Origin: Lachnospiraceae bacterium
GTDB lineage: Bacteria > Bacillota > Clostridia > Lachnospirales > Lachnospiraceae
DNA: 46,300 nucleotides
Reading direction: 5' to 3'
Assembly (NCBI GenBank): GCA_019421365.1
Contig: JAHZFJ010000005.1
Location: forward strand, 1-46,300
Of the stretch, positions 10,921 to 41,892 are shown piece after piece. A program made the position numbers and the translations under genes. The notes under the pieces are model-generated. The model saw only the letters and a program-made list of their open reading frames with translations. It was not told where the DNA came from and made no database searches. How positions within the stretch are numbered: the stretch's first letter is position 1; each line of letters opens with the position of its first letter.

Positions 10921-11051
10921 CCCAATATTGTGAATAAAGTAATAAAGGTAATAATAAAGTATTTAATGATGGTAAATTGTCATATAGACATTTTTGACTT
11001 TTGAATTATATGGCGATCGCCCGGGAGATATATTTAATGGAGAGGAACAAT

Positions 11052-12371: not shown

Positions 12372-12380
12372 GGGAAAGAT

Positions 12381-15300: not shown

Positions 15301-15707
15301 CGTACGATATCTTACAAGGCATCATTGGTGACATTCAGATTGACAATAGACCTTCGTTACAGACATATATGCGTCCACCGACGCTAGCGGTTAGTAAGAC
15401 GGGGCTTGAAGCAATCTTTGATGCAGGTGCTACAGGGGCTATATCAGGTGATTTCTCTACCCATGATTATGAAGCGAAGAGTGTTGTAGAGGTAGTCGAT
15501 AAGATGAAGAATGGTATTGTAATGAGTAATGATGAGATAAAGGTGATTCAAAATGGAAGTATCATAGTTATGCATATGTCAGATGAGGCAAAATATACAG
15601 CAGAGGCACTTGATGAAGTAATTCCATATTACTTATCAAAGGGGTATCATTTTGCACGAATAAGTGACTATTTAAGCAATGGAGAGTTGATTTCTAGTAA
15701 GGAGTAA
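12381..15707 (+). CDS. Membrane-anchored protein with four tandem CE4 (NodB-homology) polysaccharide deacetylase domains. Only domain 4 is catalytically intact. There is a KE-rich linker.
   Basis: Four ..ATFF(I/V).. NodB-type repeats. Domain 4 has SFDDWG and HDVASHTNSH (TFDDG and HTxxH motifs). Domains 1-3 keep GHxIG but lack the Asp-Asp and HTxxH motifs. Confidence 0.75.
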   Translation: MMKRKRSWFVIAGVILLVVLSLVLVLNIKNKKDTPAIKQVKQYVKYDVDKAYELALAEVENNCDLASVLTDVKTLDYVMSLNFIGLSDSMTNNAIVDLLSSYDTKATFFISGILAAEDSDLLQRLDKDGHKIGSNGLNGDAFMEKLSSKELVNSFVRTNGIINTYVDQKEPILLYCTATEYTDQVLQAAYASGNEEVVKSEYVINYGSFTSYEQVQGYIHKLPKGAILTVKLEGELEEIEYQPSVTEEDPAKDMQANIEESEVLEGTNEEKILQITEWILRAMKEEGRENVLCKDLTSYYDASLDQDYSNVIQKLGEPAFAYKSIPNKTGKVGFVFRGISDEDQLEIALTFLKEQDYRATFFVTGDEVIRYPERIEEIVSKGHEIGNGGMTGKDITEMNSQETYFEIMKCDELLKEKLGDTVKIFMPGYGKYNETTKQVAGLLNYNIVTYNKYPIANKEVSIEQVEEYFNLPLKSGDIIYIPLGVSTQFNEILNALSKKIEDDNRAVDMVSVLLQNFELQTEEQTVTTIVTNKNNSKKDPTVTVVDKKKEKEKEEEKKKQEEKDKEIEKAKAEEEVIIKEADRLRKLNKGRLSTVNRLVHTTDLVVGYGFSGVSRGDVVNKVLAKLKELNIHATFFVSIKDINNSKKTIDKIVKEGHELQILLLDSNGTTYTEVATTILKVKDFIYETYNQDSTLVRYAYDVDYQKEALEAISATSCKVIGQSASIATSKVSKDATVNEIMDATSHEGLLVATRGYIAYFRMDYYDSPTVIAKVMEKIKKEKVDTIGFVDGGTKRDGYQFKTLSEITSGEGVYQYPLKESSILKETKGKIGKGRLASENLFEYIAKRYVGSDTTKTIYSLPGFTEEEIEKLDKTGRFTADKVLFLSFDDWGSDAAITKLLYVLDKYNVKATFFIRTNYVLENPNLLRAIALAGHDVASHTNSHMVLANTTDEAGVYSNLDDKQANDLQDDFILSYDILQGIIGDIQIDNRPSLQTYMRPPTLAVSKTGLEAIFDAGATGAISGDFSTHDYEAKSVVEVVDKMKNGIVMSNDEIKVIQNGSIIVMHMSDEAKYTAEALDEVIPYYLSKGYHFARISDYLSNGELISSKE

Positions 15708-15709
15708 AG

Positions 15710-17512
15710 ATGATTAAGATAAAAAGAAAGAAAAATGTGCAAGATATCTTACTGGAACATAAAAAGGACAGAAGGTTATTACCCAATGTCCCTGATGCTA
15801 AGAAAATGCGTTCGGGGCAAGAGAGAAGAGGTAGTAGTGTAGAACACTTTGATCCAATTAGTAGAACGAGGTACCTGGTGCAGTATCCGGTTATGATTAT
15901 TTGCCGGCGAGGAATTGAGAAAAAGAGAATTAATGCAAGCGCAATTGATATTTCTACCAGTGGTATTTTAATTAAGGTGGAGCAAGAAGAGGATATTAGA
16001 ACATTAGAAGATTCTGGAAGTGCAACTTTGCGCTTCCAAGTGGTTCCAGGTACGATGCCAGAAGGCTTAGAGATGAAGATGCGAATTAAAGCGGATTTTG
16101 TTCGTAAGGTAGAACAAGAAGATGAAATGCTAGTAGCTATGAAGTTTCGTAAGGACTTAAAGCAAAAGGCGAAAGAAAAAAGAGGTAATTATGCTTTAGT
16201 ATCGTCTTGTATCCTACTAATATTTATTACGTTGTTTATTATGTTAATGAGAGCGGAAAGTATCCTTTATTTCAAGTTTAATAAGTGGTTATACTTGTAT
16301 AGTATTATTACAGCGGTTTTCTTGCTAACGAGATATCTGTTTGGATCATTTTATCGTCCTGTTAAAGTAGATCCTGAATATACACCATCTGTTACCATTA
16401 TTATTCCTTGTTTTAATGAGGAAATATGGATTCAACAGACCATACTTAGTTGTATGAATCAGAATTATCCGATGGATAAGTTAGAAGTAATAGTTGTTGA
16501 TGATCATTCAAGTGATGGATCGGTTGAGAAGATTAAGGAAATAACAGAACGTCTTTTTCGTGAGGGAGAAGAATATGATATTCCTAACCGATTACGATAT
16601 TTTGTACAGGAACGCAATGGAGGGAAAAGAGAGGCGCTTACAAGAGGAACATTAGAAGCAAAACATGATCTTGTAGTATTCGTTGACTCAGATAGTTTCC
16701 TTGATTCTGATGCGATTAGGAATCTAGTGCAACCATTCAAAGATCCTAAGATGGGAGGCGTCACTGGTCGTACGGATGTAGCTAATACATATACGAATGT
16801 ACTGACTAAGATGCAATCTGTAAGGTATTATATAGCATTTCGAATTATGAAAGCAGCTGAAGGATATTTTGATGCGGTGACTTGTTTATCAGGTCCACTT
16901 GCTTGCTATCGTAAGGAACTTGTAGTGAAGAATATTGATAAATGGTTAAGTCAAAGCTTTTTGGGACAGAAAGCAACTTTTGGAGATGATCGTGCTATGA
17001 CGAATTTCATACTCAAGGGGTATCGAACGGGATATCAAGATACTGCCGTATGTTCAACTGTTGTGCCCAATAGATATAAGGTTTTTCTTAAGCAGCAGAT
17101 GAGATGGAAGCGTTCTTGGCTTAGGGAATCTCTCATGGCTTCAAGATTCATGTGGAGAAAGGAACCCTTTGCTTCCGTTAGCTTTTATATGGGATTATTA
17201 GTTCCTGTCGCAGCACCAGTGGTGGTTGTTTATAATTTAATAATCGCACCAATTAGGTTTGGAATCTTTCCTACTACATTTTTAGTTGGTATGCTTATGA
17301 TGGCAATGATGATGAGTGTGGTACAGCTCTTATTACGTAAAAGTACCACTTGGATCTTTGGATTAGTATTTTGTTTGTTTTATGAAGGGGTACTATTATG
17401 GCAGATGCCAATAGCGTGGGTAACCTTTTGGAAATCAACATGGGGAACGCGTATGACACCAAATGATATTAGGGTGCAAGAAAAAAGAGAAAGTAGGAAG
17501 AAAATAGTGTGA
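15710..17512 (+). CDS. PilZ-domain fused to a processive GT2 synthase of the hyaluronan-synthase/NodC/chitin-synthase type
   Basis: N-terminal DISTSG (DxSxxG) PilZ motif with upstream Arg cluster; TM segments; DDHSSDGS, FVDSDS, GDDRAMTN and QQMRWKRSW (QxxRW) motifs. Confidence 0.75.
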   Translation: MIKIKRKKNVQDILLEHKKDRRLLPNVPDAKKMRSGQERRGSSVEHFDPISRTRYLVQYPVMIICRRGIEKKRINASAIDISTSGILIKVEQEEDIRTLEDSGSATLRFQVVPGTMPEGLEMKMRIKADFVRKVEQEDEMLVAMKFRKDLKQKAKEKRGNYALVSSCILLIFITLFIMLMRAESILYFKFNKWLYLYSIITAVFLLTRYLFGSFYRPVKVDPEYTPSVTIIIPCFNEEIWIQQTILSCMNQNYPMDKLEVIVVDDHSSDGSVEKIKEITERLFREGEEYDIPNRLRYFVQERNGGKREALTRGTLEAKHDLVVFVDSDSFLDSDAIRNLVQPFKDPKMGGVTGRTDVANTYTNVLTKMQSVRYYIAFRIMKAAEGYFDAVTCLSGPLACYRKELVVKNIDKWLSQSFLGQKATFGDDRAMTNFILKGYRTGYQDTAVCSTVVPNRYKVFLKQQMRWKRSWLRESLMASRFMWRKEPFASVSFYMGLLVPVAAPVVVVYNLIIAPIRFGIFPTTFLVGMLMMAMMMSVVQLLLRKSTTWIFGLVFCLFYEGVLLWQMPIAWVTFWKSTWGTRMTPNDIRVQEKRESRKKIV

Positions 17513-19254
17513 AAGATATGAGTAATATAGATGAAAATAAGAAGGATATAGAAAAAAGCAAAAAAGAAAAAGGTAGAAAAGTTATAAGTAAGAAAGACAT
17601 TAAAAAAACAATCTGTGGAACGTTTCAAGGAATTATATTACTTCTACTAGTTTTTCTGTTATTGCGTGCATGGTTAACTACAAACTCTTATGCTCCATAT
17701 GACGATGCAGATATACAAACAAAAGATTCAGGATTTATAGCTTTATCATACTTTGGAGTTAGTAGAATTGGCGATGATGTAACTATAACAACAAAGAGAT
17801 TTGAAGAGCATATAAAAGCCCTTAAGGAAAACGGTTACGTAACCATAACACAACAAGACATATTAGATTATTATCTTAATGGAAAAAAACTACCTGAGAA
17901 GGCTCTTTTCCTAATGTTTGAAGATGGATACGCAGGAACTGCAATATTTGCAGGAAAACTGATGCAGAAATACAACCTGAAAGCAACTATGCTTACATAT
18001 GGTGATAAACTAGCAATAAAGGATCCTAAATTCCTAACACCAAAAGACCTTAAACAATTAGAAAAGGAGACGTACTGGGAGATTGGAACGAATGGATATC
18101 GGTTATCCTATATTAACGTGTTTGACAAAGAAGATAATTATCTAGGAGAGTTATCATCTTATGAGTTCGTCGAAGTTAGAAATGAACTGAACAGAAAGTA
18201 TAATCACTATCTGATGGATTATATACGCGATGAGTACGGAGTTCCAAAAGAAACGTATCAGCAGATGAAGAATCGTATAATAACAGATTATCAATTACTA
18301 GAAGACAGTTATACCGAAGGGATTAATTATGTACCTAAATTACATGTACTGATGCATGCTAATACAGAGATGTATGGAAACAATCAAAGAGTAAGTGATG
18401 TTAATGAAGAGATGATTAAAGATATGTTTGCAATGAATTTTAACCGAGAGGGATTCAGTGTAAACAATGAGGAATGTAATCTCTATGATTTAACAAGAAT
18501 GCAACCACAAGCATATTGGTCACCAAATCACTTATTAATGCGAATATGGGATGATACCAAACAAGATGTTACCTTTGAGGTTGGAGATAAGGAAGAGAGT
18601 AAACAATTTGAATCTTTAAAAGGTGCTACACAGTTTGCAGAGGAATCTATAACCATTACATCACTTCCTAGTGATTCAGGTTTAATTAAATTAAAGGACA
18701 GTGAGGATTATCAGGATGTTCAATTAGACGTAACCGTTAGTGGTAATGTCTTAGGAGGACAGGGGATATATCTTCGTGCAGATGAGACCTTGCAAAATTA
18801 TGTTAAGGTACAACTAATCAACAACGAGTTAAGAATTATTGAATGCGTAGAGGGTGTAGAATCTATCATAAAGAGCGAGAATCTAGAAAGTTTAGAGGAT
18901 ATCGATACGTCTAATATTCAACTATTCACTTCGGCAAAACGGCAACTTAAGATTGGATTGAAGGACGATGCTATTACGGTTTCAGTTAATGGGAAAGACT
19001 TTAGTCCAGAAGGTACTTTACAACAAGTGAAACCAGGATCTTTGCTGTTAGAATCCGTATGTGATGAAGAAGCATATAGCCAAAGAAATCTGTATGATGA
19101 TGTATATGACGGTGTATTTGAAAAACTTGTTGTCTCTTTAAGTGATTCGGAAGAGATCTTATATGATAATCAACTTCATGGCCTTAATAAAGTATGGAGT
19201 AGTATAAAGACAGAGTGGAGTAATATATTAAACTGGTTTGTAGAGAATCTATAA
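17509..19254 (+). CDS. Membrane-anchored protein with a degenerate CE4/PgaB-like deacetylase-like N-domain and a beta-rich C-domain
   Basis: GTG start 8 nt after AGGAAG; TM; LMFEDGYAGT resembles TFDDG; no HTxxH motif. Confidence 0.45.
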   Translation: MKDMSNIDENKKDIEKSKKEKGRKVISKKDIKKTICGTFQGIILLLLVFLLLRAWLTTNSYAPYDDADIQTKDSGFIALSYFGVSRIGDDVTITTKRFEEHIKALKENGYVTITQQDILDYYLNGKKLPEKALFLMFEDGYAGTAIFAGKLMQKYNLKATMLTYGDKLAIKDPKFLTPKDLKQLEKETYWEIGTNGYRLSYINVFDKEDNYLGELSSYEFVEVRNELNRKYNHYLMDYIRDEYGVPKETYQQMKNRIITDYQLLEDSYTEGINYVPKLHVLMHANTEMYGNNQRVSDVNEEMIKDMFAMNFNREGFSVNNEECNLYDLTRMQPQAYWSPNHLLMRIWDDTKQDVTFEVGDKEESKQFESLKGATQFAEESITITSLPSDSGLIKLKDSEDYQDVQLDVTVSGNVLGGQGIYLRADETLQNYVKVQLINNELRIIECVEGVESIIKSENLESLEDIDTSNIQLFTSAKRQLKIGLKDDAITVSVNGKDFSPEGTLQQVKPGSLLLESVCDEEAYSQRNLYDDVYDGVFEKLVVSLSDSEEILYDNQLHGLNKVWSSIKTEWSNILNWFVENL

Positions 19255-19266
19255 TTGGAGGAATAC

Positions 19267-20388
19267 ATGAAAAAGAAGTGCATGAATAGGAAATGCATGA
19301 TAAAAGTACATCGATTATATCTAGTAGCAATGATAGTGTTGTGCTTGCTTAGTTTAGCTAGCTGCGATAGGGTGAAAGAACAACAGAATACGAAAATAGA
19401 GAATGCAGAAGATGACAATACGAATATGCAAGAACCTCAAGCTAATTCTTCCTTAGAAGATGATATTGAAGAAGAGAATAAAGTAAGTGTTTGGGTAACT
19501 TATTGGGATACAGAGGGACTAATAGAAGAACTGAGTGTGTGGGAACCATACATCAAACAAATAAATTATTTTGCTGCCTATTTTAAGAAAGATGGAAGTC
19601 TGTTTGTGCCAAAACAAACGAAAGAAAGTAAGGAATCCATAAACAGACTTCTTGATGGTAGTAAGCTATTCGAATATCTTACTATTGTAAATGATCAAGA
19701 ATTAGAAGATGGAACGTCAGCCTTAAAGAGTACCGAGTTATTATATTCCTTATTCGAATCAGAAGAAACCATGATAAAGCATATTAATGATATTCTTCAA
19801 GTCACTTTAGACGGTGGTTATGATGGAATAGAAATCGACTATGAGGCAATTCGTGATGATAGGGCCTTATGGGATAAGTATCTAGTTTTCCTTAATTCAC
19901 TAACAAAGGTAGCAAAGGATAATAATCTTTCCCTTCGTGTGTTGTTAGAACCTTCGACTCCAGTTGACGACATTCAATTTCCTGAAGGAATTGAATATAT
20001 AATGATGTGCTACAATCTATATGGCTATGGAACCGAACCAGGGCCAAAGGCGAATAGAGACTTTCTAATCGAAATGGTAGAAAAGATGAAGAAAGTCTCT
20101 ATTCGTCGAGGTTATGCACTTGCTACGGGAGGATTTGATTTTTCCTCTGATGGTAAAACAACAGCAGTAACAATGGTCGAAGCAATGGACCTACAATCAA
20201 CTGAGGCAAATGATAGCTACCGTGACGAACAGAGTCAGTGTGTGGTTTTTACCTATACGAAGCAGAACATGACCCATGAAGTATGGTATGCCGATGAGGA
20301 GACACTTAAATATTGGACTACAGTAATAAATGAAGAAGGAGAGAAAAACATCTCCATATGGCGACTAGGTGGAACTATTCGCAATTAA
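19267..20388 (+). CDS. GH18-like glycoside hydrolase lipoprotein (chitinase-like fold)
   Basis: Lipobox LSLASC; YDGIEIDYE matches the GH18 DxxDxDxE region with Glu in place of the second Asp; start ATG 19267 after GGAGGAA (ORF track 19255). Confidence 0.55.
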   Translation: MKKKCMNRKCMIKVHRLYLVAMIVLCLLSLASCDRVKEQQNTKIENAEDDNTNMQEPQANSSLEDDIEEENKVSVWVTYWDTEGLIEELSVWEPYIKQINYFAAYFKKDGSLFVPKQTKESKESINRLLDGSKLFEYLTIVNDQELEDGTSALKSTELLYSLFESEETMIKHINDILQVTLDGGYDGIEIDYEAIRDDRALWDKYLVFLNSLTKVAKDNNLSLRVLLEPSTPVDDIQFPEGIEYIMMCYNLYGYGTEPGPKANRDFLIEMVEKMKKVSIRRGYALATGGFDFSSDGKTTAVTMVEAMDLQSTEANDSYRDEQSQCVVFTYTKQNMTHEVWYADEETLKYWTTVINEEGEKNISIWRLGGTIRN

Positions 20389-23760: not shown

Positions 23761-25038
23761 ATGTCAATAAATCAAAGAATTCCAACAAATCAAAAAATCC
23801 CCAAAGAGAAAGGGATTGACCATACTTTAGATCTTATCAAAGAAGGATATCCATTTATTCAAAAACGTATTAAAAAATATCAGTCACCAATAGTAATATC
23901 ACGATTATTTGGAAAGAGAGCAATTTTTCTAAGTGGAGTAGAGGCGGCGAAGGTCTTTTATAATGATAAATATTTTAAACGGCATGGTGTGGCGCCTATG
24001 CGTGTTCAAAAAACATTATTTGGGAAACATGCAATTCAGGGACTTGATGGGAAAGAGCATCTGAAACGAAAACAATTGTTTATGTCCTTATTAACACCTG
24101 AGTATGAAAAGCAGTTAATCGATTTATGTGTATTGAACTTAGAACGTAAGGCAAAAGAATGGGAAAAGAAGCCAAGTATTAAGTTATTTGACGAAAGCAA
24201 AAAGGTACTGTTTATAAGTGTATGTGAATGGACCGCTGTTCCGTATCCCAAAGCAAAAGAAAAAGAGATTCTAGAAGACTTTGGATATATGATCTACTCT
24301 TTTGGTAGAATGGGTTCATATTATCGAAAAGGTAAACGTTCGAGAAAGTGTGTAGAACATTGGATAGAACAACTTATTGAAGATGTAAGAACTGGAAAAT
24401 TCGTAGTAGATGCAAGTACTCCGCTATATCAGATGAGTATGTGTCGGAATACGAAGGGTGAACTAGTGAATATAAAAATCGCTGCAAGGGAACTTATTAA
24501 TCTTCTGCGACCTATTATAGCAATTGCCACATACATTACCTTTGTGGCTGTAGCATTATATGAAAATCCTGAATGCAAAGATAAATTAAAGACGGAAGAT
24601 TCTTTATATCTAGAGATGTTTTGCCAGGAGGTAAGACGATATTATCCCTTTAGCCCATTCGTTGGAGCTAAAGTAATTAAGAGCTTTAGATGGAAGCAGT
24701 GTGTATTCAAAAAAAATACACTGGTGCTTCTTGATTTATATGGAATGATGCATGATGAGAAGCTTTGGAAACAACCCTATAGATTTAATCCAGATCGATT
24801 TAAGGACCGTAAGGAATGTCTATATGATTTGATGCCCCAAGGTGGAGGAAATATTCAAAAAGGACATCGATGTGCCGGTGATATACTAACATTGAAGGTT
24901 ATGATGGCCTTTACTGACTATCTGGTGAATAAAATAGAGTATACCGTGCCGAAACAAGATTTATGTATTCCACTTAATAAGATACCGACACTACCAAGAA
25001 GTGGGTTTGTTATGAAGAATGTAAGAACAATAATATAA
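23761..25038 (+). CDS. CYP152-family cytochrome P450 fatty-acid peroxygenase (P450 BSbeta/OleT-like)
   Basis: Matches remembered P450 BSbeta sequence nearly along its length: LLRPIIAI (Arg-Pro carboxylate site), PQGGG..KGHRCAGD heme-thiolate loop, RVQKTLFG with Gln at the BSbeta Gln85 position. Confidence 0.85.
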   Translation: MSINQRIPTNQKIPKEKGIDHTLDLIKEGYPFIQKRIKKYQSPIVISRLFGKRAIFLSGVEAAKVFYNDKYFKRHGVAPMRVQKTLFGKHAIQGLDGKEHLKRKQLFMSLLTPEYEKQLIDLCVLNLERKAKEWEKKPSIKLFDESKKVLFISVCEWTAVPYPKAKEKEILEDFGYMIYSFGRMGSYYRKGKRSRKCVEHWIEQLIEDVRTGKFVVDASTPLYQMSMCRNTKGELVNIKIAARELINLLRPIIAIATYITFVAVALYENPECKDKLKTEDSLYLEMFCQEVRRYYPFSPFVGAKVIKSFRWKQCVFKKNTLVLLDLYGMMHDEKLWKQPYRFNPDRFKDRKECLYDLMPQGGGNIQKGHRCAGDILTLKVMMAFTDYLVNKIEYTVPKQDLCIPLNKIPTLPRSGFVMKNVRTII

Positions 25039-25045
25039 GCTTAAG

Positions 25046-25087
25046 AATCACTTGTATTTATTAAAAGTACAGGTGATTTTTTTATCA
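25046..25087 (+). terminator. Rho-independent terminator (AATCACTTGTA/TACAGGTGATT followed by TTTTTTTAT)
   Basis: Read directly. Confidence 0.7.
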
Positions 25088-25260
25088 TATTTTTTTATTA
25101 AATTTGTTTTATTAAGGTTGTTATGTTAAGGTTAATTAGGAATATAAAAATGGACAATATCAAGAATTGATATTATAATATTGTAAATATGTACTATTTA
25201 CGGGTTTTTATGTTTAAAACTTAAGAAACTGTAGTTTATCACTTATAAGGGGCATTAAAA

Positions 25261-27144
25261 ATGGAAGATAAAAATTATATTGGGAATTTAATAAAAGGTT
25301 TACGGGAATCAAAAGGAATAAGTCAAACCAAATTATGCAGAGGTATTTGTGATAGAGCAGTATTAGTACGGATAGAAAGTGGTAAGAGTACACCGCAAAA
25401 ATTATTAACAGATGCACTTTTTCAAAGATTAGGTTTATCCATTAATAAATTTGGAATATCCTATACTATGGCGGAGAATAGAGCTATATTATTGCGAAGG
25501 GATATACTTGAATCATTATTTTGCGAACAATATGATAATGCTTTAGAGTTATTAGGAATATATGAAAATGAAGTAGGAAGTACAAGTAAAAGTGCGATAT
25601 TAGAGCAGTTTTGTTATGTTGTAAAGGTTGTTCTTGAAATAACTAAAGGAACGAATATTGAAGAGGTTATAGATTTAATACATAAGGGACTTAGAAAAAC
25701 ATTTACTCAATTTAAAGTTGAAGAGATTATAGATTATCTTTTACATGATGAAGAGATTATGCTAATTATATTGTTAGCAGAGAGTTTGTATATGCAAGGA
25801 AAGAAGAGTGAAGCAATTAACACCTTATTCAATCTGATTGAGTATATAGAGAAAAATATATTAGATGATGAAGAATTAGTGCGTATTTACCCAAAAGTTG
25901 CGTTATTATTAGCAGAGAAACTAGTGGAGGAAAACAGATATGCAGAATTATATATCTGTGATCGAGCAATTAATATCCTTATCGAAAATAGTAAGATTGC
26001 TTATCTAGCAGAATTATTAAACATACAGCTAAACTTTGGTCTCAACGGGGATCGTAGTAGTTATTCAAAAAATAAGAAGTTCTATAAGTCAGTTATACGT
26101 ATTTTGGAGGAACTTAGAGGAGATTATGAAAAAAGTGGAGTTGAGAAGGTATTAATACCTGCACCGATAACTCATGGGCATGTTATCGGCAATCAGATTC
26201 GAGCACTTCGTAAAATCCTTGGAATCACACAAGAAGATCTGAGCGAAGTATGTGATCCGTTAACTGTATCAAGGATAGAAGGTGGGAGAAAACCAACAGA
26301 CAGGCATTATGAAGAGTTAATGACTTCCATGGGGAGAGAAGGGATTCGCTACTATCCTTTCATCAAATCCAATGATTTTGAATTACATATGTTAAGGAGA
26401 GATTTTGGTAGGAGTATGGAAAACTATGATTTTGAGGAGGCTGAAAAGGCACTCTTATTGTTGGAAAGAAAACTGAATCGGTCAGAAGCAGTTAACGAGC
26501 AATATTTATTAAGGAGCAGGTCGTTATTAGAGGCATGTAAGGGACAGATAACTCAAGAAGCGCTAATTGAGAGATTAGTAGAGGCACTTAGGATTACTGC
26601 CCCCATTAACGAGAACCCTCAGCGCATAAAGAAGGAACTAAGATCTCTATTAACGGAAGAAGAATTAATTAATAGTTTAGATGGGTGGCCATTAACCCAA
26701 ACAGAGACTGTAATATGGAACAATATAGGAAACGCGAAGGGACAGCTTGGAGATAGTAAAGAGAAAATTAGAATATTGTCTATAGTTATGAATAATTATG
26801 AGAAGGATACGGTAAGCTTGCATAACAATCTAAAAGGATATATTCTTACGTGTTTTAATTTAGCAAATGAGCAAGATCGAATTGGAGACTATATGGAATC
26901 ATTGAAAACATGTGAAGAGGGGATTAGGTATTGTTTATCAGCTGGTGAGGGGTTTATGTTATTTAATCTATTAGCTGTTAAAGCTGACTGTTTAGTTAAT
27001 GTTAAAGAAAACAAGAAAGCTTGTAAAAAAATATTTCAACAAGCTTTCTTGCTGGCAAAGTTGCTAGAAGATAAAGTTATGTATGAATGGATCAAAATTC
27101 AATATAATGAACAATTTAAAATTGAAATTGAATACGAATATTAA
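25261..27144 (+). CDS. Tandem-duplicated RNPP/Rgg-like regulator: two HTH-XRE plus helical-repeat (TPR-like) modules in one 627-aa protein
   Basis: HTH 1 at about aa 7-60 (LRESKGISQTKL..) and HTH 2 at about aa 305-358 (LRKILGITQEDL..), each followed by roughly 240 aa of helical repeats. Confidence 0.65.
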   Translation: MEDKNYIGNLIKGLRESKGISQTKLCRGICDRAVLVRIESGKSTPQKLLTDALFQRLGLSINKFGISYTMAENRAILLRRDILESLFCEQYDNALELLGIYENEVGSTSKSAILEQFCYVVKVVLEITKGTNIEEVIDLIHKGLRKTFTQFKVEEIIDYLLHDEEIMLIILLAESLYMQGKKSEAINTLFNLIEYIEKNILDDEELVRIYPKVALLLAEKLVEENRYAELYICDRAINILIENSKIAYLAELLNIQLNFGLNGDRSSYSKNKKFYKSVIRILEELRGDYEKSGVEKVLIPAPITHGHVIGNQIRALRKILGITQEDLSEVCDPLTVSRIEGGRKPTDRHYEELMTSMGREGIRYYPFIKSNDFELHMLRRDFGRSMENYDFEEAEKALLLLERKLNRSEAVNEQYLLRSRSLLEACKGQITQEALIERLVEALRITAPINENPQRIKKELRSLLTEEELINSLDGWPLTQTETVIWNNIGNAKGQLGDSKEKIRILSIVMNNYEKDTVSLHNNLKGYILTCFNLANEQDRIGDYMESLKTCEEGIRYCLSAGEGFMLFNLLAVKADCLVNVKENKKACKKIFQQAFLLAKLLEDKVMYEWIKIQYNEQFKIEIEYEY

Positions 27145-35731: not shown

Positions 35732-35825
35732 TGTTGAGCATGGTATTAATTTGCCCATTATTATAATTCTTATAATCTATAATTAAATTAGATAGCTTTA
35801 GAAGCAACTATTCTTTATTTTCAGA

Positions 35826-35861
35826 AAAGGGGTTGCCGTACTAAGTACGGTAACCCCTTTG
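35826..35861. terminator. Bidirectional terminator between convergent genes (GGGGTTGCCGTAC-TAA-GTACGGTAACCCC)
   Basis: 13-bp GC-rich stem with T-tracts on both strands. Confidence 0.7.
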
Positions 35862-35889: not shown

Positions 35890-38800
35890 CTATTTATTAA
35901 TTGATATAATCTTGTCACTATCTTCTGAAAGGAGTCTCATGAAGCCCCACATACCTTGTTCAATATCCCATCGTATACTTGTCGATTGGTACATGTAGTC
36001 TCCGGGTTCAGTTTTTATGAATTTGTCTTGATTAATCACTTGGAGATTACGTGATCCACCAATTGTAACAGCACCATATACGCCATTTATCTGAGAATCC
36101 ATATTCGTTGGTTCATTATGACTTAATTGGTTGTGAACGAAAAGTGGAATTGCCCTAGGTTGACTGGCTGGTACGAAGAATTTCACTACAATAGGGTCAT
36201 CTACTTTTGCTAAGAATACAGGAGTAAGAGGATCATTCTTATTCTCTTCAATTGATCGGAATACTTCGCTGACCTTTTCGTTTGCTTTCAATCTGTTGAA
36301 GAATGGTTCGCTTCTTAGATTAAATCCTTTCATTCCTTGATCTTCTTTATCAAAATCAAATGGAGTTACTAGTGGTTCAAAGAACATCTTTGGCAGTAGA
36401 TTATCATCTTTATCTAAGAGATAGATTCCGTTATGAGCAAGCATTGAGAATTGTCGATAATTAGGTAGGAATGGATTTGTTATTGTCAACTGGTCACCAG
36501 TAGAAGCTATTTTCTCCATAGTGTTGGAAAGTGTAGTGGAACCAACAGGTGCAAGATTAATAGCTCCAAATAATCCATGATGTCGATGGTTTATTGTATC
36601 AGCGAAATCAACTAAGATTGCTTGTTGTGCGCTTTCTTCATAGAACCAGTAATACGTGAAGGTGTCGCCAACACCAATTGTTTGGTTAGGGTTGAAACCA
36701 ACTGTCGTACCATCGGAGTCCAGTATATTATAAACTGCCATTTGTGAATGCATAGAAACTCTTGAACTATTTGGCCATTTATCTTGTACCGGTACTTCAG
36801 GGAAGAATGGGACTTCAAGATTCTTTGGTAGTAGATTCGATAACTTAAGTTCTAATAATTCACCAGCATTAATGGTAATAATGAGTGGTTTAGGATTCAT
36901 CTCTCCACTTAAAACCTTAGGAACATCGTCGTACTCTACATATGTCATTCCAAATGGATCATGATCGCCAAATTTATTGTAGATAATATCAGAGTGTATA
37001 GCTGCAACATGGAATGTTCTAGTTTTTGTGCCTGCAGGTACATTCGGTTTTTTCGAAATTGCCATCTCTGGAGGTTCACCAGTTTTACATGGCAATGGTT
37101 TTGTTCTTAGTGGTAGTTTTTTACGATCCTTTAATGTATATAATTGAGGGATTCTTGTTCCTCTAACACGAGTAATACCCCAGGTACCGAGCCAGAAATC
37201 ATCTCTGCCTCCAGAATAATATAACACATCAAAGTCTTTGTTCTTATCTTCACCATCGGTACCATCAAGAGAGAATTCAAAAGTAAATGCTTCGGAAATA
37301 CCGATGTGATTTTCGTTAGTACGCTTTGAATTCATATTTCTAGTTTGTGTTCTCCAAGAGTACCGATTAAAATTAATGGCATGGGATTCCTCGTGAGAAC
37401 CATCTAGTAGACGTAATCTTACCGGATCACCAACATAACCTTCGAATATTGGAGTACAAGGATCTCCATGAACAAAAGAACTTAGAGCATATGCAGGATC
37501 GCCCTTTCTGAATTGAAGAGGGGCACTTGCATAGTTAAATCCCATGATACCGAAATCATCCATTGCTCCTAATTGCTCTGGTGGATTAAGCGCTTTACCA
37601 TTTTTATCTACAGCTGGAATAAAATCAGCTACGGCAAGGTTGAATTCTCTGAAATTTGGTAAAAACGGATTCTCAACCGCTATCTGGCTACCCACTTCAG
37701 TCTTATCTCCTGTATGACTATCAAAGAAGCAGGAACCTTCTGGCTCCACAATAAGTGCAGCATAAAGTCCATGTAATTGAACAGCATTAGGAAATAAATG
37801 ATCATGGAAGAAACAAGCACGTAATTCCACATCAGCATACCATCTAAATACAACTGTCTGATTAAAACTAGCACCTGTGAAGTAATTCCAACCAGAATTG
37901 GCTCCATCTGAGGATTGTACATCGAATTTAACTAAGTGAACATGAGTAGAAGCAAATAATGTCTCCGTTAATAATTGGAATGGATTAGGTCCTAGTTGTT
38001 CAGGGAATTTATTGGTAAAGTGAATCTCAATACATTCACCAGCATTAGCATGAATAAAGAGTGGTTCAGGGCGTTTTGTTCCATTCATTACAGCCTCTTC
38101 ATCCTTTGCGAGTACATACAAACGACCCTCTGGGTCATTCCAACATTCTTCATTATAGATAAGCTTACGCTGAATTCCTACAATGTCGTATCTACGAATA
38201 GGGGCTTCTTTAGGACATGGATTTACAAACAGTGCACCTAATTTTGCATCCGGTACTAGGGCATTCTTTTCTAATTCTGTAATAGGCAATTCTCTGTTCC
38301 AACCGCGAGGAGGTACAGGTGCTCGGTTTCCAACAGTACCAGGAATAAAAAATGGAAAACCAGGTATATCATCGGTTGGTATAGGTGGTTTAGGGCGGTC
38401 TGGAAGAGGCATTAATTTTGTAATTGGTGTTCCATCAGGATAACATCTTGTTCCATCTTCAAAAACATTATGAATTCTGTGTAATCCCCACATACCTTCT
38501 TCAAAATGAGGATATAAGTGGCAGTGATAGATTACATCTCCATATGCTTTTTGCAAACTACCAGCACCATATAATACATGAAAAGCAGCTGTTTGGCCGG
38601 GACTTAAGTGAATTGAATCAATAATATTAGAACCAGGGTCTTGTGTATCACTATTCCATTGTTGCAAATGTAGATGGAAGATATGTGTTTCTTGCATACC
38701 ACCACCAATAGCATACCAATGGATTGGATCTCCAACATAGGCTCTTGGAAGTACTGTAGGAGGTGGATCACCAAAGACCCAAGAATCATGGTGTACTTCT

Positions 38801-39525
38801 TCACCAATACATTCGGGACATACGATTCCTTTCTCGATTAGGTGCAGACGATTCCTCATTGGCTCAGAACGGTAATTGATAGAATGAGTCATAGCAGCAG
38901 ATCTTGAATGAGGGTCGAATGCGGGTTCTAAGCATCTGTTTTTAACTGGTGCCTCATCATGGAATATAGTTACATACTCACGAAAATCGGGTAAGAAAGG
39001 GTGATGAATATCTGCAAATACACCACTTTTTAGTTTATCACCTGTTTGTGGATCTGTCCAAGTGCTGCCCATTGGTTCAACAATTACTGCGCCAAAGAGG
39101 CCATGAACATTACTTCCAAGTTCACTGCTTAAAGGATTTCCAAGATCAGATAACTGAAATCCACCCTGAGTGGTAGCTTCCCATCTATATACAACTGTCT
39201 TGCCAGGTGCAACTAATGAAGAGTCGTTAGCTCCTACAAATGCGCCATCAGAAGTTTGTATTTCACAATTAAGCCCCTTTATATTGATCCCTGTTGAGAA
39301 GCAGAGCTTATTGGTGAAGGCAATTTCAAAGGTATCAAATTGATGCACACGAATTACTAAAGGCTGAACTAGGTTAACATACGTTCCTGGACATTTCTTA
39401 ACAGCCTCCTGTACTTTTGGTTCATTATCTTTTAATACGTACATTAATCCATCTGGATCTACATCCCCATATTTGTTATATACAATAGGGATTTGTATAG
39501 CCGATACTTCAAAATATTTAGTCAT
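35890..39525 (-). CDS. Giant six-cupredoxin-domain multicopper-oxidase-like protein (3 x ~400-aa repeats), with no signal peptide
   Basis: HIFHLH (HxxHxH) and HCHLYPHFEEGM (HCHxxxHxxxxM) in repeat 1; HVH and HDH (HxH) in repeat 2; triplicated blocks (..IYNKYGDVDPDG.. / ..IYNEECWNDPEG.. / ..IYNKFGDHDPFG..). Confidence 0.75.
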   Translation of the reverse strand: MTKYFEVSAIQIPIVYNKYGDVDPDGLMYVLKDNEPKVQEAVKKCPGTYVNLVQPLVIRVHQFDTFEIAFTNKLCFSTGINIKGLNCEIQTSDGAFVGANDSSLVAPGKTVVYRWEATTQGGFQLSDLGNPLSSELGSNVHGLFGAVIVEPMGSTWTDPQTGDKLKSGVFADIHHPFLPDFREYVTIFHDEAPVKNRCLEPAFDPHSRSAAMTHSINYRSEPMRNRLHLIEKGIVCPECIGEEVHHDSWVFGDPPPTVLPRAYVGDPIHWYAIGGGMQETHIFHLHLQQWNSDTQDPGSNIIDSIHLSPGQTAAFHVLYGAGSLQKAYGDVIYHCHLYPHFEEGMWGLHRIHNVFEDGTRCYPDGTPITKLMPLPDRPKPPIPTDDIPGFPFFIPGTVGNRAPVPPRGWNRELPITELEKNALVPDAKLGALFVNPCPKEAPIRRYDIVGIQRKLIYNEECWNDPEGRLYVLAKDEEAVMNGTKRPEPLFIHANAGECIEIHFTNKFPEQLGPNPFQLLTETLFASTHVHLVKFDVQSSDGANSGWNYFTGASFNQTVVFRWYADVELRACFFHDHLFPNAVQLHGLYAALIVEPEGSCFFDSHTGDKTEVGSQIAVENPFLPNFREFNLAVADFIPAVDKNGKALNPPEQLGAMDDFGIMGFNYASAPLQFRKGDPAYALSSFVHGDPCTPIFEGYVGDPVRLRLLDGSHEESHAINFNRYSWRTQTRNMNSKRTNENHIGISEAFTFEFSLDGTDGEDKNKDFDVLYYSGGRDDFWLGTWGITRVRGTRIPQLYTLKDRKKLPLRTKPLPCKTGEPPEMAISKKPNVPAGTKTRTFHVAAIHSDIIYNKFGDHDPFGMTYVEYDDVPKVLSGEMNPKPLIITINAGELLELKLSNLLPKNLEVPFFPEVPVQDKWPNSSRVSMHSQMAVYNILDSDGTTVGFNPNQTIGVGDTFTYYWFYEESAQQAILVDFADTINHRHHGLFGAINLAPVGSTTLSNTMEKIASTGDQLTITNPFLPNYRQFSMLAHNGIYLLDKDDNLLPKMFFEPLVTPFDFDKEDQGMKGFNLRSEPFFNRLKANEKVSEVFRSIEENKNDPLTPVFLAKVDDPIVVKFFVPASQPRAIPLFVHNQLSHNEPTNMDSQINGVYGAVTIGGSRNLQVINQDKFIKTEPGDYMYQSTSIRWDIEQGMWGFMRLLSEDSDKIISINK

Positions 39526-39535
39526 AATACATCAC

Positions 39536-39778
39536 CTACCATGTGTCAGGTATTTTATTTTGTTCGGTTTCAGCAAATAATGCTGATATAGCATCAATTC
39601 TAATTTGGAATACGTTATCTTTTAATGGAGCTGACACACCAAATTTAGCATTTATCCATATTTCTTCATTTTCGACATTTTCTAATATGCCGACTAAAAA
39701 GAAAGGATAATATTCTATCATAACTAATGCCTTCTTACCGATGCTAGCAGATAATTTACATTCAATACTTTTATTCAT
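39536..39778 (-). CDS. Small hypothetical protein, 80 aa, paralogous to the upstream 113-aa protein
   Basis: ORF track; shared pattern ..VG.I.E...EE...I.A...........F.I.I..I.A.. Confidence 0.5.
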   Translation of the reverse strand: MNKSIECKLSASIGKKALVMIEYYPFFLVGILENVENEEIWINAKFGVSAPLKDNVFQIRIDAISALFAETEQNKIPDTW

Positions 39779-39844
39779 AATAAACCATGCTCCTTATAAT
39801 ATATATATAGGTTGATAAAGGTACCCTATAACCCTTTAGCCGCA

Positions 39845-40186
39845 TTAATAAAGTGAAATTCTTACAGCTGGATCGAATGGCATATACCAAGCAATTTGAT
39901 TCAAAGGAATTATTAATGGAGTTGGGAATATGAATTCTGGAGCCTGATTCATTTTAATATTTGCAGTTTCAATCAGAACAAATTCATCCGTTAATTCCGT
40001 TATTTTGCCTACTATAATAGGACGAAAAACTTGGTTTAAGATATTAAGTTGATTTGCCTTTAATACAAACATCACGTCAGTACATAGATGATTTTTTAAC
40101 ATATCAGCTAACAAAGGATTTTTAAGTGTACTAGTAGTACACATTTTATTTTCATCAATATTTTCTATCATTTTACATGCCCCCAT
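39845..40186 (-). CDS. Small hypothetical protein, 113 aa
   Basis: ORF track; start lies 2 nt after the stop of the Cys-rich gene. Confidence 0.5.
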   Translation of the reverse strand: MGACKMIENIDENKMCTTSTLKNPLLADMLKNHLCTDVMFVLKANQLNILNQVFRPIIVGKITELTDEFVLIETANIKMNQAPEFIFPTPLIIPLNQIAWYMPFDPAVRISLY

Positions 40187-40188
40187 AA

Positions 40189-40914
40189 TTAATGATCATG
40201 ACCAATATTGTCAGGATATATATTAAGCTCTCCTTGTAGTAACTCAGAACCTACTTTAATCTCAGTTTCAAAAAGTGGTGCGGAATATACATATAGCGCT
40301 GCAGGAGATTCACAATTTTTGTTTTTTGCATATATCGTAACTTCTCTTGAAGTTTCATCTTCTAAGACCACATGGAAAATTGCTACCATATTATCTCCAG
40401 TTGGTGCATGATAACATTCAAGTTTCTTAGAACTAAATAAAAGTTTGCCTAATCCATCGTAAAGAGAAAACTCTCCTAAGTGTGCTGTAAATTCCCTATG
40501 AATGCGAATCGTGAATCTATATTGTTTTAAACAGTTTGTGTTTTCATCATAGCAACCTTTTTCACAGCGTTTTGTCTCATTTTCTTGATTGTTTCTCTCA
40601 TAGAGGGGAGCTTTGACAGTTTTTTCCTCGCAGGTACATTCATTATCTCCACATATGGTTCCATTACCAACAACTAAATCTGCGCTATGTGGGAAACGTG
40701 GAACATCACAAACTTCTGGTTCACAAATTGGACCAAAAACACTATTGCACATACTGTTTGATGTGCTAGAATTTGAACAGTCTTCTGCGTGAGCTTTGCA
40801 ATTATATCGACATTTACCCTGACAATTAGGATTATCACAAATACAATTCTCGTGGTAACATTTTGAACTTTGGTAATCATTATCTGTATTATTATAATTA
40901 TCCATCAAGACCAA
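40189..40914 (-). CDS. Cysteine-rich protein with a metallothionein-like N-terminal half and a globular C-terminal half
   Basis: About 22 Cys in the first 130 aa, arranged as CxC/CxxC clusters (CYHENCICDNPNCQGKCRYNCKAHAEDC..). Confidence 0.55.
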   Translation of the reverse strand: MVLMDNYNNTDNDYQSSKCYHENCICDNPNCQGKCRYNCKAHAEDCSNSSTSNSMCNSVFGPICEPEVCDVPRFPHSADLVVGNGTICGDNECTCEEKTVKAPLYERNNQENETKRCEKGCYDENTNCLKQYRFTIRIHREFTAHLGEFSLYDGLGKLLFSSKKLECYHAPTGDNMVAIFHVVLEDETSREVTIYAKNKNCESPAALYVYSAPLFETEIKVGSELLQGELNIYPDNIGHDH

Positions 40915-41040
40915 ACCTTTCTAGATTTTGAAGTTTAGTGTTAAATACTAATATACAGTATATGTCGAATATATGGGGAATGTGTCGAAATATAAAGAAA
41001 ATGTAAAGAATAATAAAAAATAAATAAAAAACCGTAAATG

Positions 41041-41086
41041 ACAGAAACAGTTATAATTGTTTCAGTCATTTACGGTTAAAGTACTG
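41041..41086 (-). terminator. Orphan intrinsic terminator oriented for the minus strand. An 18-bp stem is followed, in minus-strand sense, by TTTTTATTTATTTTTTATT.
   Basis: ACCGTAAATGACAGAAACA-GTTATAATT-GTTTCAGTCATTTACGGT. No minus-strand gene lies upstream of it. Confidence 0.45.
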
Positions 41087-41154
41087 TTATGTTAGAATAC
41101 AAAGGTAGTTGGTTAAGTGTTGCAATTATGATTCAATATGTAAGGGGAATACAG

Positions 41155-41892
41155 ATGCGTTATGAATTTAGTTTTTATAAGGAAGAAGATTTTGAAGAGA
41201 TTGAACAATTGGTCTTGGCTTCCTATAGCTTCGAGTATCCAGTTTGGGGGTTGAGCAGACAGGAATTTACAAAAGGTTTACATCCAGCTTTCACTGGTCA
41301 CTATCATACCTTTGAGCATACTGTTGGGGTATATAAAGAAGATGGTAAAATCGTTGCGGTTGTTATGAATGAAGGTAATTATGATGGCGAAGTTTTCTTT
41401 CTATTCGATTCACAAGAACGTGGTGAAGAGAGAGAGCTTCTAATAGAGATGATTAGATTTGCTAAGACCAACGTATCTGGAATAAAAGAGGATAGACGAA
41501 CGAAATACATAGATCTGTATGTACCAGAGTGGAACATAACATTAAAAGAATTGCTTAATGAAAAAGGTTTTACAAAGGAAGAGTGGAGCGAATCGTTATA
41601 CGTTTTACCATTTAATGATGAGCCTTTTGACGTCAAATTACCTGAAGGGTATACGTTTGCAGATGGGAATGCCACACCTGATTTCTATCTTTCCAATACA
41701 CATAGATTGTCATTTGGCTATGGTGGTGAAGATCATGCATGTACGCATGGGGAACAGGCATTTCATGACTTACGGCAAATGAAGCATTACAGAAAAGATC
41801 GAGATATCTGTGTACTTGATGAACTGAAAAGACCAGTTGAAATTGCAAATTCTCATGCCAAGCCTTCATGCAATATGCATATAGTAATATGA
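41155..41892 (+). CDS. Hypothetical protein. The start is probably ATG 41155 after AAGGGGAA; the ORF track extends to 41089.
   Basis: ORF track. I recognise no domain. A GNAT-like fold is possible but unsupported. Confidence 0.45.
   Translation: MRYEFSFYKEEDFEEIEQLVLASYSFEYPVWGLSRQEFTKGLHPAFTGHYHTFEHTVGVYKEDGKIVAVVMNEGNYDGEVFFLFDSQERGEERELLIEMIRFAKTNVSGIKEDRRTKYIDLYVPEWNITLKELLNEKGFTKEEWSESLYVLPFNDEPFDVKLPEGYTFADGNATPDFYLSNTHRLSFGYGGEDHACTHGEQAFHDLRQMKHYRKDRDICVLDELKRPVEIANSHAKPSCNMHIVI

What the first reader, a model, noticed from the sequence alone, without database searches (positions are those of the whole stretch)
35890..39525. Cytoplasmic ceruloplasmin-like six-domain multicopper oxidase with a single copper-ligand set split across repeats
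The protein contains three roughly 400-aa repeats. The only intact HxxHxH and HCHxxxHxxxxM motifs, which hold the type-1 Cu Cys and two T3 His pairs, are in the second half of repeat 1. The two HxH motifs sit in the first half of repeat 2. Repeat 3 and the other half-repeats have lost the ligands (e.g. QSTSIRWDIEQGMWG replaces HCHLYPHFEEGMWG). A trinuclear cluster would therefore form at the repeat-1/repeat-2 interface rather than between domains 1 and 6 as in ceruloplasmin. There is no signal peptide. It is a large Cu oxidase in a Clostridia-like, presumably anaerobic, background.
Basis: partly seen in the sequence, partly recalled or inferred. Interest (0 to 1): 0.75.

Follow-up and report, generated by a model that had tools for sequence, protein, structure and literature searches.

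The report
Spore manganese oxidase MnxG operon
The large copper protein is a clear relative of MnxG, the well-studied manganese-oxidising enzyme on Bacillus spores, and its two small partner genes sit next to it; the odd copper-site layout is the known hallmark of that family, and the only unusual point is that the host is a strictly anaerobic gut bacterium.

Summary
ORF 35890-39525 (-) encodes a 1211-aa protein made of three ~400-aa repeats (six cupredoxin domains). It has one type-1 copper set and one trinuclear-cluster ligand set, split between domain 2 and domain 3, and no signal peptide.

It is not a new kind of oxidase. It matches Bacillus sp. PL-12 MnxG (PDB 9bxa) over its full length (1103 bits). 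An AlphaFold model superposes on 9bxa_A at TM 0.95. All 12 ligands are invariant in 118/118 family members, including Bacillus sp. SG-1 MnxG. The domain-2/3 placement was already described for bacterial six-domain oxidases, Clostridium ones included (PMC3600357).

Homologues of mnxE and mnxF lie directly upstream. A Cys-rich gene restricted to this clade lies before them. A sigmaK-type promoter motif precedes the cluster and strong terminators flank it.

Near-identical proteins are annotated 'copper oxidase [Anaerosporobacter sp.]' and 'manganese oxidase'. The exact sequence occurs in metagenome assemblies, one with a name that points to human gut.

Best reading: a mother-cell-made, spore-surface Mnx complex that oxidises Mn(II) using O2. 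'Cytoplasmic' is probably wrong.

What remains open: the role of an O2-dependent enzyme in an obligate anaerobe, accessory subunits that have almost no histidines, and the extra gene.

The parts
35890..39525 (-). mnxG: 1211-aa six-domain multicopper oxidase, the catalytic subunit
   Evidence: Full-length phmmer hit to 9bxa_A MnxG, 1103 bits. AF2 model pLDDT 89, TM 0.95 to 9bxa_A. 42.8% identity to Bacillus sp. SG-1 MnxG.
38266..39525 (-). Repeat 1 (residues 1-420 = cupredoxin domains 1-2 plus Pro-rich linker). Domain 2 carries the only T1 site and half of the trinuclear ligands.
   Evidence: Repeat alignment; motif scan.
37051..38265 (-). Repeat 2 (residues 421-825 = domains 3-4). Domain 3 carries the two HxH motifs.
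35893..37050 (-). Repeat 3 (residues 826-1211 = domains 5-6). The canonical ligands are lost.
38668..38685 (-). HxxHxH motif (H281, H284, H286). By the canonical multicopper-oxidase pattern these are one T1 His and two trinuclear-cluster His.
   Evidence: Invariant in 118/118 homologues. The assignment of individual His residues to Cu types follows the canonical pattern (my knowledge).
38491..38526 (-). HCHxxxHxxxxM motif (H334, C335, H336, H340, M345): T1 Cys/His/Met and two T3 His
   Evidence: Invariant in 118/118. H340 is the residue mutated in the PDB entry 'Mnx H340A complex'; the 9bxa chain shows Ala at that aligned position.
37936..37944 (-). First HxH of domain 3 (H528, H530)
37798..37806 (-). 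Second HxH of domain 3 (H574, H576)
39536..39778 (-). mnxF homologue, 80 aa, no histidine
   Evidence: 9bxa_E MnxF, E 0.0085. HMM built from Bacilli MnxF: 45 bits, E 6e-14, the only hit in the window. His count.
39845..40186 (-). mnxE homologue, 113 aa (the true start may be the second ATG, at 40171)
   Evidence: 9bxa_B MnxE, E 2e-13. Bacilli MnxE HMM: 75.7 bits, E 2e-23. A similar ORF lies among the upstream ORFs in 72 of 77 related loci.
40189..40905 (-). Gene X: Cys-rich protein of unknown function, first gene of the cluster, found only in this Lachnospiraceae-type clade
   Evidence: No Pfam hit. 17 homologues. Conserved CxxVFxPxCxPEVCDxPR motif plus three invariant His. Same position in L002-L004 and L080; L001 carries a split copy. 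No fold match.
40957..40983 (-). SigmaK-type promoter motif AC-N17-CATATACT
   Evidence: The same pattern lies about 50-70 nt upstream of the first gene (motif start) in L002, L003/L004 and L080. Intergenic background is 0.2 per kb per strand.
41030..41077 (-). Strong hairpin followed by a T-run, upstream of the promoter (an insulating terminator)
   Evidence: dG -25 kcal/mol, z -10.3.
35825..35857 (-). GC-rich hairpin plus U-run 33 nt after the mnxG stop. The operon terminator, probably shared with the convergent flavodoxin-like gene.

Best explanation
This is the catalytic subunit of a Bacillus-type Mnx manganese-oxidase complex. It is encoded in a four-gene unit, X-mnxE-mnxF-mnxG, in an Anaerosporobacter-like member of the Lachnospiraceae.

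Inferred mechanism, by orthology:
1. The unit is transcribed late in sporulation in the mother cell from a sigmaK-type promoter, which is why there is no signal peptide.
2. MnxG assembles with a ring of MnxE and MnxF subunits (E3F3 in Bacillus sp. PL-12), and the complex is laid down in the outermost spore layer.
3. When the spore meets O2 and Mn(II), electrons pass from Mn(II)/Mn(III) to the single type-1 copper in domain 2 (H281, C335, H340, M345).
4. They then travel through the H334-C335-H336 bridge to the trinuclear copper cluster. That cluster is held by H284, H286, H334 and H336 of domain 2 and by H528, H530, H574 and H576 of domain 3. There O2 is reduced to water and Mn(IV) oxide precipitates on the spore.
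5. Domains 1, 4, 5 and 6 are copper-free scaffold.

Shown here: homology, fold, ligand conservation, gene neighbourhood, promoter motif and terminators.
Inferred: complex formation, spore localisation, Mn(II) as substrate.
For: - Full-length match to solved MnxG: 1103 bits, residues 2-1203 against 2-1208.
- Model TM 0.95, rmsd 2.5 A to 9bxa_A.
- 12 of 12 copper ligands invariant across 118 homologues, including SG-1 MnxG.
- mnxE and mnxF homologues immediately upstream, and similar upstream ORFs in related loci.
- mnxEFG is the minimal set needed for an active Mn oxidase, and MnxG is the only characterised multicopper oxidase that requires accessory proteins for successful overexpression (PMC5622069).
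- Domain-2/3 copper layout published for Bacillus and Clostridium MnxG-like proteins (PMC3600357).
- SigmaK-type motif in 4 of 5 independent clade loci, against about 0.02 expected per 100 nt.
- Unit bounded by strong terminators.
- Cluster mates annotated 'manganese oxidase' and 'copper oxidase [Anaerosporobacter sp.]'.
Against: - Only about 43% identity to the characterised Bacillus enzymes, so substrate specificity is not proven.
- The host genus is an obligate anaerobe, while the reaction needs O2.
- mnxA-D of Bacillus sp. SG-1, including the 195-aa thioredoxin/Sco-like ORF, have no counterpart here.
- MnxF has no histidine and MnxE has one, whereas Bacilli MnxF averages 3.8 His and carries a conserved HxH. 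The type-2 copper site reported for Bacillus MnxEF (PMC5622069) is therefore probably absent.
- No Mn oxidation by Clostridia spores was found in the searched literature.
- The promoter is only a consensus match.
Confidence: 0.62

Rival explanations
1. The same Mnx-type spore-surface complex, but in this anaerobe its main role is not Mn mineralisation. It could act as an O2-consuming or oxidant-protective oxidase, or oxidise another substrate (Fe(II), Cu(I), or phenolic coat components as the spore laccase CotA does), protecting spores or helping germination after exposure to air.
For: - Obligately anaerobic host lineage. The relative KM106-2 carries the same operon 3 kb from an [FeFe]-hydrogenase gene.
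- The accessory subunits differ from Bacillus: they are almost His-free.
- An extra clade-specific gene X is present.
- Only about 43% identity to the characterised enzymes.
Against: All catalytic copper ligands and the overall fold are conserved. The E/F partners are retained. No residue-level evidence for a changed substrate site was obtained.
Confidence: 0.28
2. One reading: a soluble cytoplasmic copper oxidase of vegetative cells, with a novel ligand arrangement that is unrelated to spores.
For: No signal peptide. No sporulation genes in the window itself.
Against: - Bacillus MnxG lacks a signal peptide as well. Mn oxidation there is done by the spores, and the enzyme is reported in the outer spore layers.
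- A sigmaK-type motif, not a convincing sigma-70 site, precedes the operon. Sigma-70-like matches are no more frequent than in shuffled sequence.
- The ligand arrangement is the family norm.
Confidence: 0.06
3. A decaying or non-catalytic relic: a copper-free structural spore protein.
For: Four of the six domains have lost their copper ligands.
Against: The remaining 12 ligands are invariant in 118/118 homologues. The ORF is intact and has 19 members in its 90% cluster from several sources. Loss of ligands in the other domains is shared with the active Bacillus enzyme.
Confidence: 0.03

Closest known systems
Bacillus-type Mnx complex (MnxG-MnxE3-MnxF3) of marine Bacillus sp. PL-12, SG-1 and MB-7; PDB 9bxa
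   Same: Collinear over the full length. TM 0.95. Three repeats and six domains. One T1 site in domain 2 and trinuclear-cluster ligands in domains 2 and 3, with identical numbering of H340. No signal peptide. mnxE and mnxF directly upstream.
   Different: - About 43% identity.
- Host is an anaerobic Lachnospiraceae, not an aerobic Bacillus.
- mnxA-D are absent and a Cys-rich gene X stands first in the cluster.
- MnxF is shorter (80 aa against about 100) and His-free. It lacks the HxH of the Bacilli consensus.
Ceruloplasmin, hephaestin and coagulation factors V and VIII (eukaryotic six-domain multicopper blue proteins)
   Same: Six cupredoxin domains from a triplicated two-domain unit. They are the best non-MnxG structural matches, TM 0.64-0.66 normalised to ceruloplasmin.
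   Different: About 12% identity. [quoted passage not shown] The eukaryotic proteins are secreted and work without E/F-type partners.
Green-algal ferroxidase Fox1 (Chlamydomonas)
   Same: A six-domain protein whose trinuclear-cluster ligands lie in domains 2 and 3, as in bacterial six-domain oxidases (PMC3600357).
   Different: It is a eukaryotic ferroxidase. It was not compared here.
Pseudomonas-type MnxG (NCBIfam NF041487, about 1900 aa)
   Same: A distant homologue and also a Mn oxidase. Nine local matches, 265 bits.
   Different: The score is far below the 3100-bit equivalog cut-off. Reported identity to Bacillus MnxG is about 25% (preprint 10.1101/2022.11.10.515945). That protein is much longer.
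Two-domain laccases (SLAC type, e.g. 3cg8, 7w6v)
   Same: Each repeat resembles a two-domain oxidase. Residues 230-352 match their C-terminal copper domain at E about 1e-10.
   Different: Those enzymes are trimers of two-domain chains with three clusters at subunit interfaces. Here the three units are fused and only one interface keeps its cluster.

Membership tests
Bacillus-type MnxG / Mnx complex | Full-length sequence homology to MnxG of Bacillus sp. PL-12 and SG-1 | tested here: met
   1103 bits, residues 2-1203 against 2-1208 of 9bxa_A. 42.8% identity over 1216 columns to SG-1 MnxG.
Bacillus-type MnxG / Mnx complex | Same three-dimensional architecture as solved MnxG (six cupredoxin domains) | tested here: met
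   AF2 model pLDDT 89.1, pTM 0.89. Foldseek TM 0.95/0.94, rmsd 2.5 A to 9bxa_A. This is a predicted model, not an experimental structure.
Bacillus-type MnxG / Mnx complex | A single T1 copper site in domain 2, with trinuclear-cluster ligands split between domains 2 and 3 | tested here: met
   Motif positions. Repeat alignment. Invariance in 118/118. Published layout (PMC3600357). Inter-ligand distances in the model could not be measured with these tools.
Bacillus-type MnxG / Mnx complex | mnxE and mnxF encoded immediately upstream of mnxG | tested here: met
   HMMs built from Bacilli loci give 75.7 and 45 bits, each the only hit in the window.
Bacillus-type MnxG / Mnx complex | His-based copper sites in the MnxE/MnxF accessory subunits | tested here: not met
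   Window MnxF has 0 His and MnxE has 1. Bacilli MnxF averages 3.8 His with a conserved HxH. This feature belongs to the Bacillus complex and is not needed to assign MnxG.
Bacillus-type MnxG / Mnx complex | Full mnxABCDEFG operon as in Bacillus sp. SG-1 | tested here: not met
   No homologues of the SG-1 ORFs upstream of mnxE were found near the window operon. Only mnxEFG are required for activity (PMC5622069).
Bacillus-type MnxG / Mnx complex | Late-sporulation (sigmaK) mother-cell expression and location in the outer spore layer | tested here: inconclusive
   An AC-N17-CATAnnnT motif precedes the operon here and in 3 other independent clade loci. This is a consensus match only. Localisation cannot be tested.
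Bacillus-type MnxG / Mnx complex | Mn(II) to Mn(IV) oxidase activity | not testable with these tools
   Needs biochemistry on spores or on the recombinant complex.
Ceruloplasmin-type six-domain multicopper proteins | Trinuclear cluster between domains 1 and 6; T1 sites in domains 2, 4 and 6 | tested here: not met
   The ligands lie only in domains 2 and 3. Reference layout from PMC3600357.
Ceruloplasmin-type six-domain multicopper proteins | Six-cupredoxin-domain fold | tested here: met
   TM 0.64-0.66 to 4ejx, 4enz and 1kcw, normalised to the target.
Pseudomonas-type MnxG (NF041487 equivalog) | Score at or above the curated cut-off of 3100 bits | tested here: not met
   265 bits.

The most novel reading that the evidence does not exclude
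Spores of obligately anaerobic gut Lachnospiraceae (Anaerosporobacter and relatives such as KM106-2 and Zhenhengia) may carry a streamlined, O2-dependent Mnx-type oxidase. In this version the accessory ring has lost its histidine copper sites, and in most of these loci (not Zhenhengia) a clade-specific Cys-rich, three-His protein (gene X) joins the complex. Outside the host such a complex would coat the spore with Mn oxide or consume O2 as a shield. That would link a geochemical enzyme to the transmission of gut anaerobes.
Probability: 0.25. Interest if true: 0.55.

Novelty: new member of a known kind. Interest (0 to 1): 0.3.

Why it matters
As a protein architecture it adds nothing new. The 'split' copper-ligand set is the defining and already published feature of MnxG, which now has a solved structure.

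The modest value lies in context. Intact mnxEFG operons with every catalytic ligand preserved occur in strictly anaerobic bacteria, and the exact protein occurs in metagenome assemblies (one name points to human gut). Here the accessory subunits lack the copper-binding histidines of the Bacillus complex, and an uncharacterised Cys-rich partner gene is present.

That makes two questions testable. Do spores of gut anaerobes oxidise Mn, or scavenge O2, after leaving the host? What are MnxE and MnxF really for, if their copper sites are dispensable?

Tried and rejected
- Pfam alone gives only weak Cu-oxidase_3 and Cu-oxidase_2 hits. It gives nothing for MnxE, MnxF or gene X, so it would not have identified the system.
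- NCBIfam's MnxG model is the Pseudomonas type and the score is far below its cut-off. Membership of that equivalog is rejected.
- The paper describing 9bxa was not in the searchable library, so Mn-binding residues could not be mapped. van Waasbergen et al. 1996 was not held either. The statement that the SG-1 mnx operon has a sigmaK site rests on my memory of that paper. My regex found no such site in the 250 nt before SG-1 mnxA.
- Rfam found no RNA family in the window.
- The sigma-70 promoter scan was no better than shuffled sequence, and the simple terminator scan missed the two long hairpins. These were then confirmed by folding.
- Gene X: the structure prediction gave a confident C-terminal beta domain but no significant fold match in the PDB, best E 0.2. 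Its function remains open.
- Recent horizontal transfer from Bacilli was considered and is not favoured. The closest relatives (62-95% identity) are Clostridia or unnamed MAGs, while Bacilli sit at 43-49%. Composition is unremarkable.
- The tools do not return model coordinates, so ligand-to-ligand distances could not be measured. Convergence of the ligands is inferred from the superposition on 9bxa_A plus the one-to-one ligand alignment.
Full report
**The observation**

The ORF at 35890-39525 on the minus strand is real. It encodes 1211 aa and starts at an ATG preceded by AGGTGA.

Splitting the protein at residues 420 and 825 gives three segments. They align pairwise at 25-28% identity with E values of 1.6e-39, 8e-23 and 1.3e-27, so the triplicated ~400-aa repeat is far beyond chance.

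- HxxHxH at 281-286.
- HCH at 334-336, followed by H340 and M345.
- HVH at 528-530.
- HDH at 574-576.

In the repeat alignment the equivalent positions elsewhere are degenerate. For example, YQSTSIRWDIEQGMWG in repeat 3 and YYSGGRDDFWLGTWG in repeat 2 stand against HCHLYPHFEEGMWG.

**Identity**

A sequence search of the PDB returns a full-length match to chain A of 9bxa, named MnxG. The score is 1103 bits, covering residues 2-1203 against 2-1208.

An AlphaFold2 model built on 59 homologues (pLDDT 89.1, pTM 0.89) superposes on 9bxa_A, 'Structure of Mnx H340A complex from Bacillus sp. PL-12', with TM 0.95 and rmsd 2.5 A. The mutated residue, H340, is the T1 histidine of the HCHxxxH motif and has the same number in the window protein.

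The next-best structures are ceruloplasmin (TM 0.64-0.66 normalised to the target, 12% identity) and coagulation factors V and VIII. This confirms the six-domain, ceruloplasmin-like fold.

Identity to MnxG of Bacillus sp. SG-1, the strain in which the mnx genes were found, is 42.8% over the full length.

**The copper layout is the family norm**

I aligned 118 full-length homologues, including SG-1 MnxG. All twelve canonical ligands are invariant: H281, H284, H286, H334, C335, H336, H340, M345, H528, H530, H574 and H576.

Vasin et al. 2013 (PMC3600357) already reported two things for all analysed bacterial six-domain oxidases, explicitly including MnxG-like proteins of Bacillus and Clostridium. 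[quoted passage not shown] They found the same domain-2/3 placement in green-algal ferroxidases, and they noted residual ligands at the lost sites.

**Neighbourhood**

- Immediately upstream on the same strand lie a 113-aa ORF (39845-40186) matching MnxE of 9bxa (E 2e-13) and an 80-aa ORF (39536-39778) weakly matching MnxF (E 0.0085).
- Profile HMMs built only from the corresponding ORFs of Bacilli loci score these two ORFs at 75.7 bits (E 2e-23) and 45 bits (E 6e-14). Each is the single hit among all reading frames of the window.
- By plain BLASTP, an MnxE-like ORF lies among the ORFs upstream of the MnxG gene in 72 of 77 related genome loci, and an MnxF-like ORF is detectable in 22.
- According to Romano et al. 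2017 (PMC5622069), mnxE, mnxF and mnxG are the minimal set that yields an active Mn oxidase. The complex is MnxG plus an E3F3 hexamer, oxidation is carried out by spores rather than vegetative cells, and MnxG is the only characterised multicopper oxidase that needs accessory proteins for successful overexpression.

**Differences from the Bacillus system**

- The SG-1 genes upstream of mnxE (two membrane proteins, a thioredoxin/Sco-like protein and the 267-aa ORF next to mnxE) have no counterpart here.
- Instead the cluster begins with a Cys-rich 238/241-aa gene, X (40189-40905). It has no Pfam family and only 17 homologues in 5.8 billion proteins.
- X lies in the same position in the nearest relatives: L002-L004 and Lachnospiraceae bacterium KM106-2 (L080). 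L001 carries a split copy. X is missing in Zhenhengia (L072) and in Bacilli.
- X has an invariant CxxVFxPxCxPEVCDxPR motif, three invariant histidines and a confidently predicted C-terminal beta domain with no structural match.
- The window MnxF contains no histidine and MnxE contains one. Bacilli MnxF averages 3.8 His and has a conserved HxH in '...W.IHIHNIEVFY'. The type-2 copper centre coordinated by three histidines that was reported for Bacillus MnxEF is therefore unlikely to exist here.

**Expression signals**

- A sigmaK-type pattern, AC-N17-CATATACT, lies at 40957-40983 (-), starting 69 nt before the gene X ORF.
- The same pattern lies about 50-70 nt before the first gene (motif start) in L002, L003/L004 and L080.
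- The pattern occurs only 0.2 times per kb per strand in the intergenic DNA of the window. Four of five independent loci is therefore well beyond chance, roughly 1e-6 by a simple binomial estimate.
- Sigma-70-like sites are no more frequent than in shuffled sequence.
- The unit is bracketed by a strong hairpin plus T-run upstream (41030-41077, dG -25 kcal/mol, z -10.3) and by a GC-rich hairpin plus U-run 33 nt after the mnxG stop (35825-35857).
- From memory of van Waasbergen et al. 1996, which I could not retrieve, the SG-1 mnx cluster is also preceded by a candidate sigmaK site and is expressed in mid to late sporulation.
- Mother-cell synthesis explains the missing signal peptide. Bacillus MnxG starts at the same residue and has none either. 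Mn oxidation there is done by the spores, and the enzyme is reported in the outer spore layers (Francis et al. 2002 title; preprint).

**Host**

- The exact protein is found in several metagenome assemblies. One is named HALL17-1_SAMN07199946; I take this from the name to be a human gut sample.
- Members of its 90%-identity cluster are annotated 'copper oxidase [Anaerosporobacter sp.]' (WP_455718104.1) by NCBI and 'manganese oxidase' by IMG.
- Anaerosporobacter belongs to the Lachnospiraceae, class Clostridia. That it is a spore-forming obligate anaerobe is my own knowledge.
- The 65%-identical orthologue in Lachnospiraceae bacterium KM106-2 sits 3 kb from an [FeFe]-hydrogenase gene.
- Other named homologues come from strict anaerobes, Orenia metallireducens and Caloramator australicus. 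Clostridium perfringens and C. methylpentosum homologues were listed in 2013.
- I found no paper addressing Mn oxidation by spores of Clostridia.

**Conclusion**

The finding is an orthologue of a known, structurally solved enzyme system, and the 'split' ligand set is that system's signature.

Assignment to the Bacillus-type MnxG family is very secure. I put Mn(II) oxidation on the spore surface as the actual function at about 0.6. The main rival is that the same complex serves O2 or oxidant protection, or acts on another substrate, in an anaerobe.

The reading 'cytoplasmic oxidase' is not supported.

Three things are mildly new. The system is intact in gut anaerobes, the accessory subunits have lost their histidines, and a fourth gene specific to this clade is present.

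I rate the novelty as a new member of a known kind, with interest 0.3.

Noticed in passing
window 40189-40905 (-): Gene X is the first gene of the mnx cluster. It is Cys-rich and has only 17 homologues, all in the Lachnospiraceae-type clade. It has an invariant CxxVFxPxCxPEVCDxPR motif and invariant H169, H181 and C-terminal H241. The predicted C-terminal beta domain (residues 130-232, pLDDT >=90) has no PDB fold match. It may be a fourth subunit, an anchor or a metal donor of the complex.
   Followed up: partly
window 39536-40186 (-): MnxF (80 aa) has no histidine and MnxE has one. Bacilli MnxF carries a conserved HxH and averages 3.8 His. The accessory-subunit copper sites of the Bacillus complex therefore seem to be dispensable or absent here.
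   Followed up: partly
window 35890-39525 (-), residues 236-246, 715, 926, 980-983, 1131: MnxG has conserved residues outside the 12 canonical ligands. A CxxC...HH insert (C236, C239, H245, H246) is unique to repeat 1. H715 and H980 are invariant, with H715 at the T1-His position of domain 4. H926, H983 and H1131 are nearly invariant. These could be vestigial sites or additional metal or substrate sites.
   Followed up: no
window 23761-25038 (+): A CYP152-family cytochrome P450 fatty-acid peroxygenase (E 4e-130 to 9iy1 and 1izo). From my own knowledge this P450 type runs on H2O2, so it is plausible in an anaerobe.
   Followed up: partly
window 11001-20388 (+): A polysaccharide gene cluster. 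It comprises a UDP-glucose dehydrogenase, a 1108-aa protein with four polysaccharide-deacetylase domains, a 600-aa GT2/chitin-synthase-like glycosyltransferase, and two large ORFs (581 and 377 aa) with no Pfam family.
   Followed up: no
window 41030-41077 (-) and 35825-35857: Two very stable terminator hairpins bracket the mnx unit. The upstream one (dG -25 kcal/mol, z -10.3) has no obvious minus-strand gene to terminate and may insulate the sporulation promoter. The downstream one probably serves both convergent genes.
   Followed up: partly
window 5908-7884 (-): A 658-aa SPFH/Band-7 protein on the opposite strand, in the segment with the highest G+C (0.395) of the window.
   Followed up: no
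window 25039-25260 (+): This is the only other intergenic match to the sigmaK-type pattern in the window. It lies upstream of a 627-aa protein with two HTH domains (25261-27144).
   Followed up: no
window 41089-41892 (+): A 267-aa ORF divergent from the mnx unit, with no Pfam or PDB match. Its true start is probably a later Met (about 41155).
   Followed up: partly
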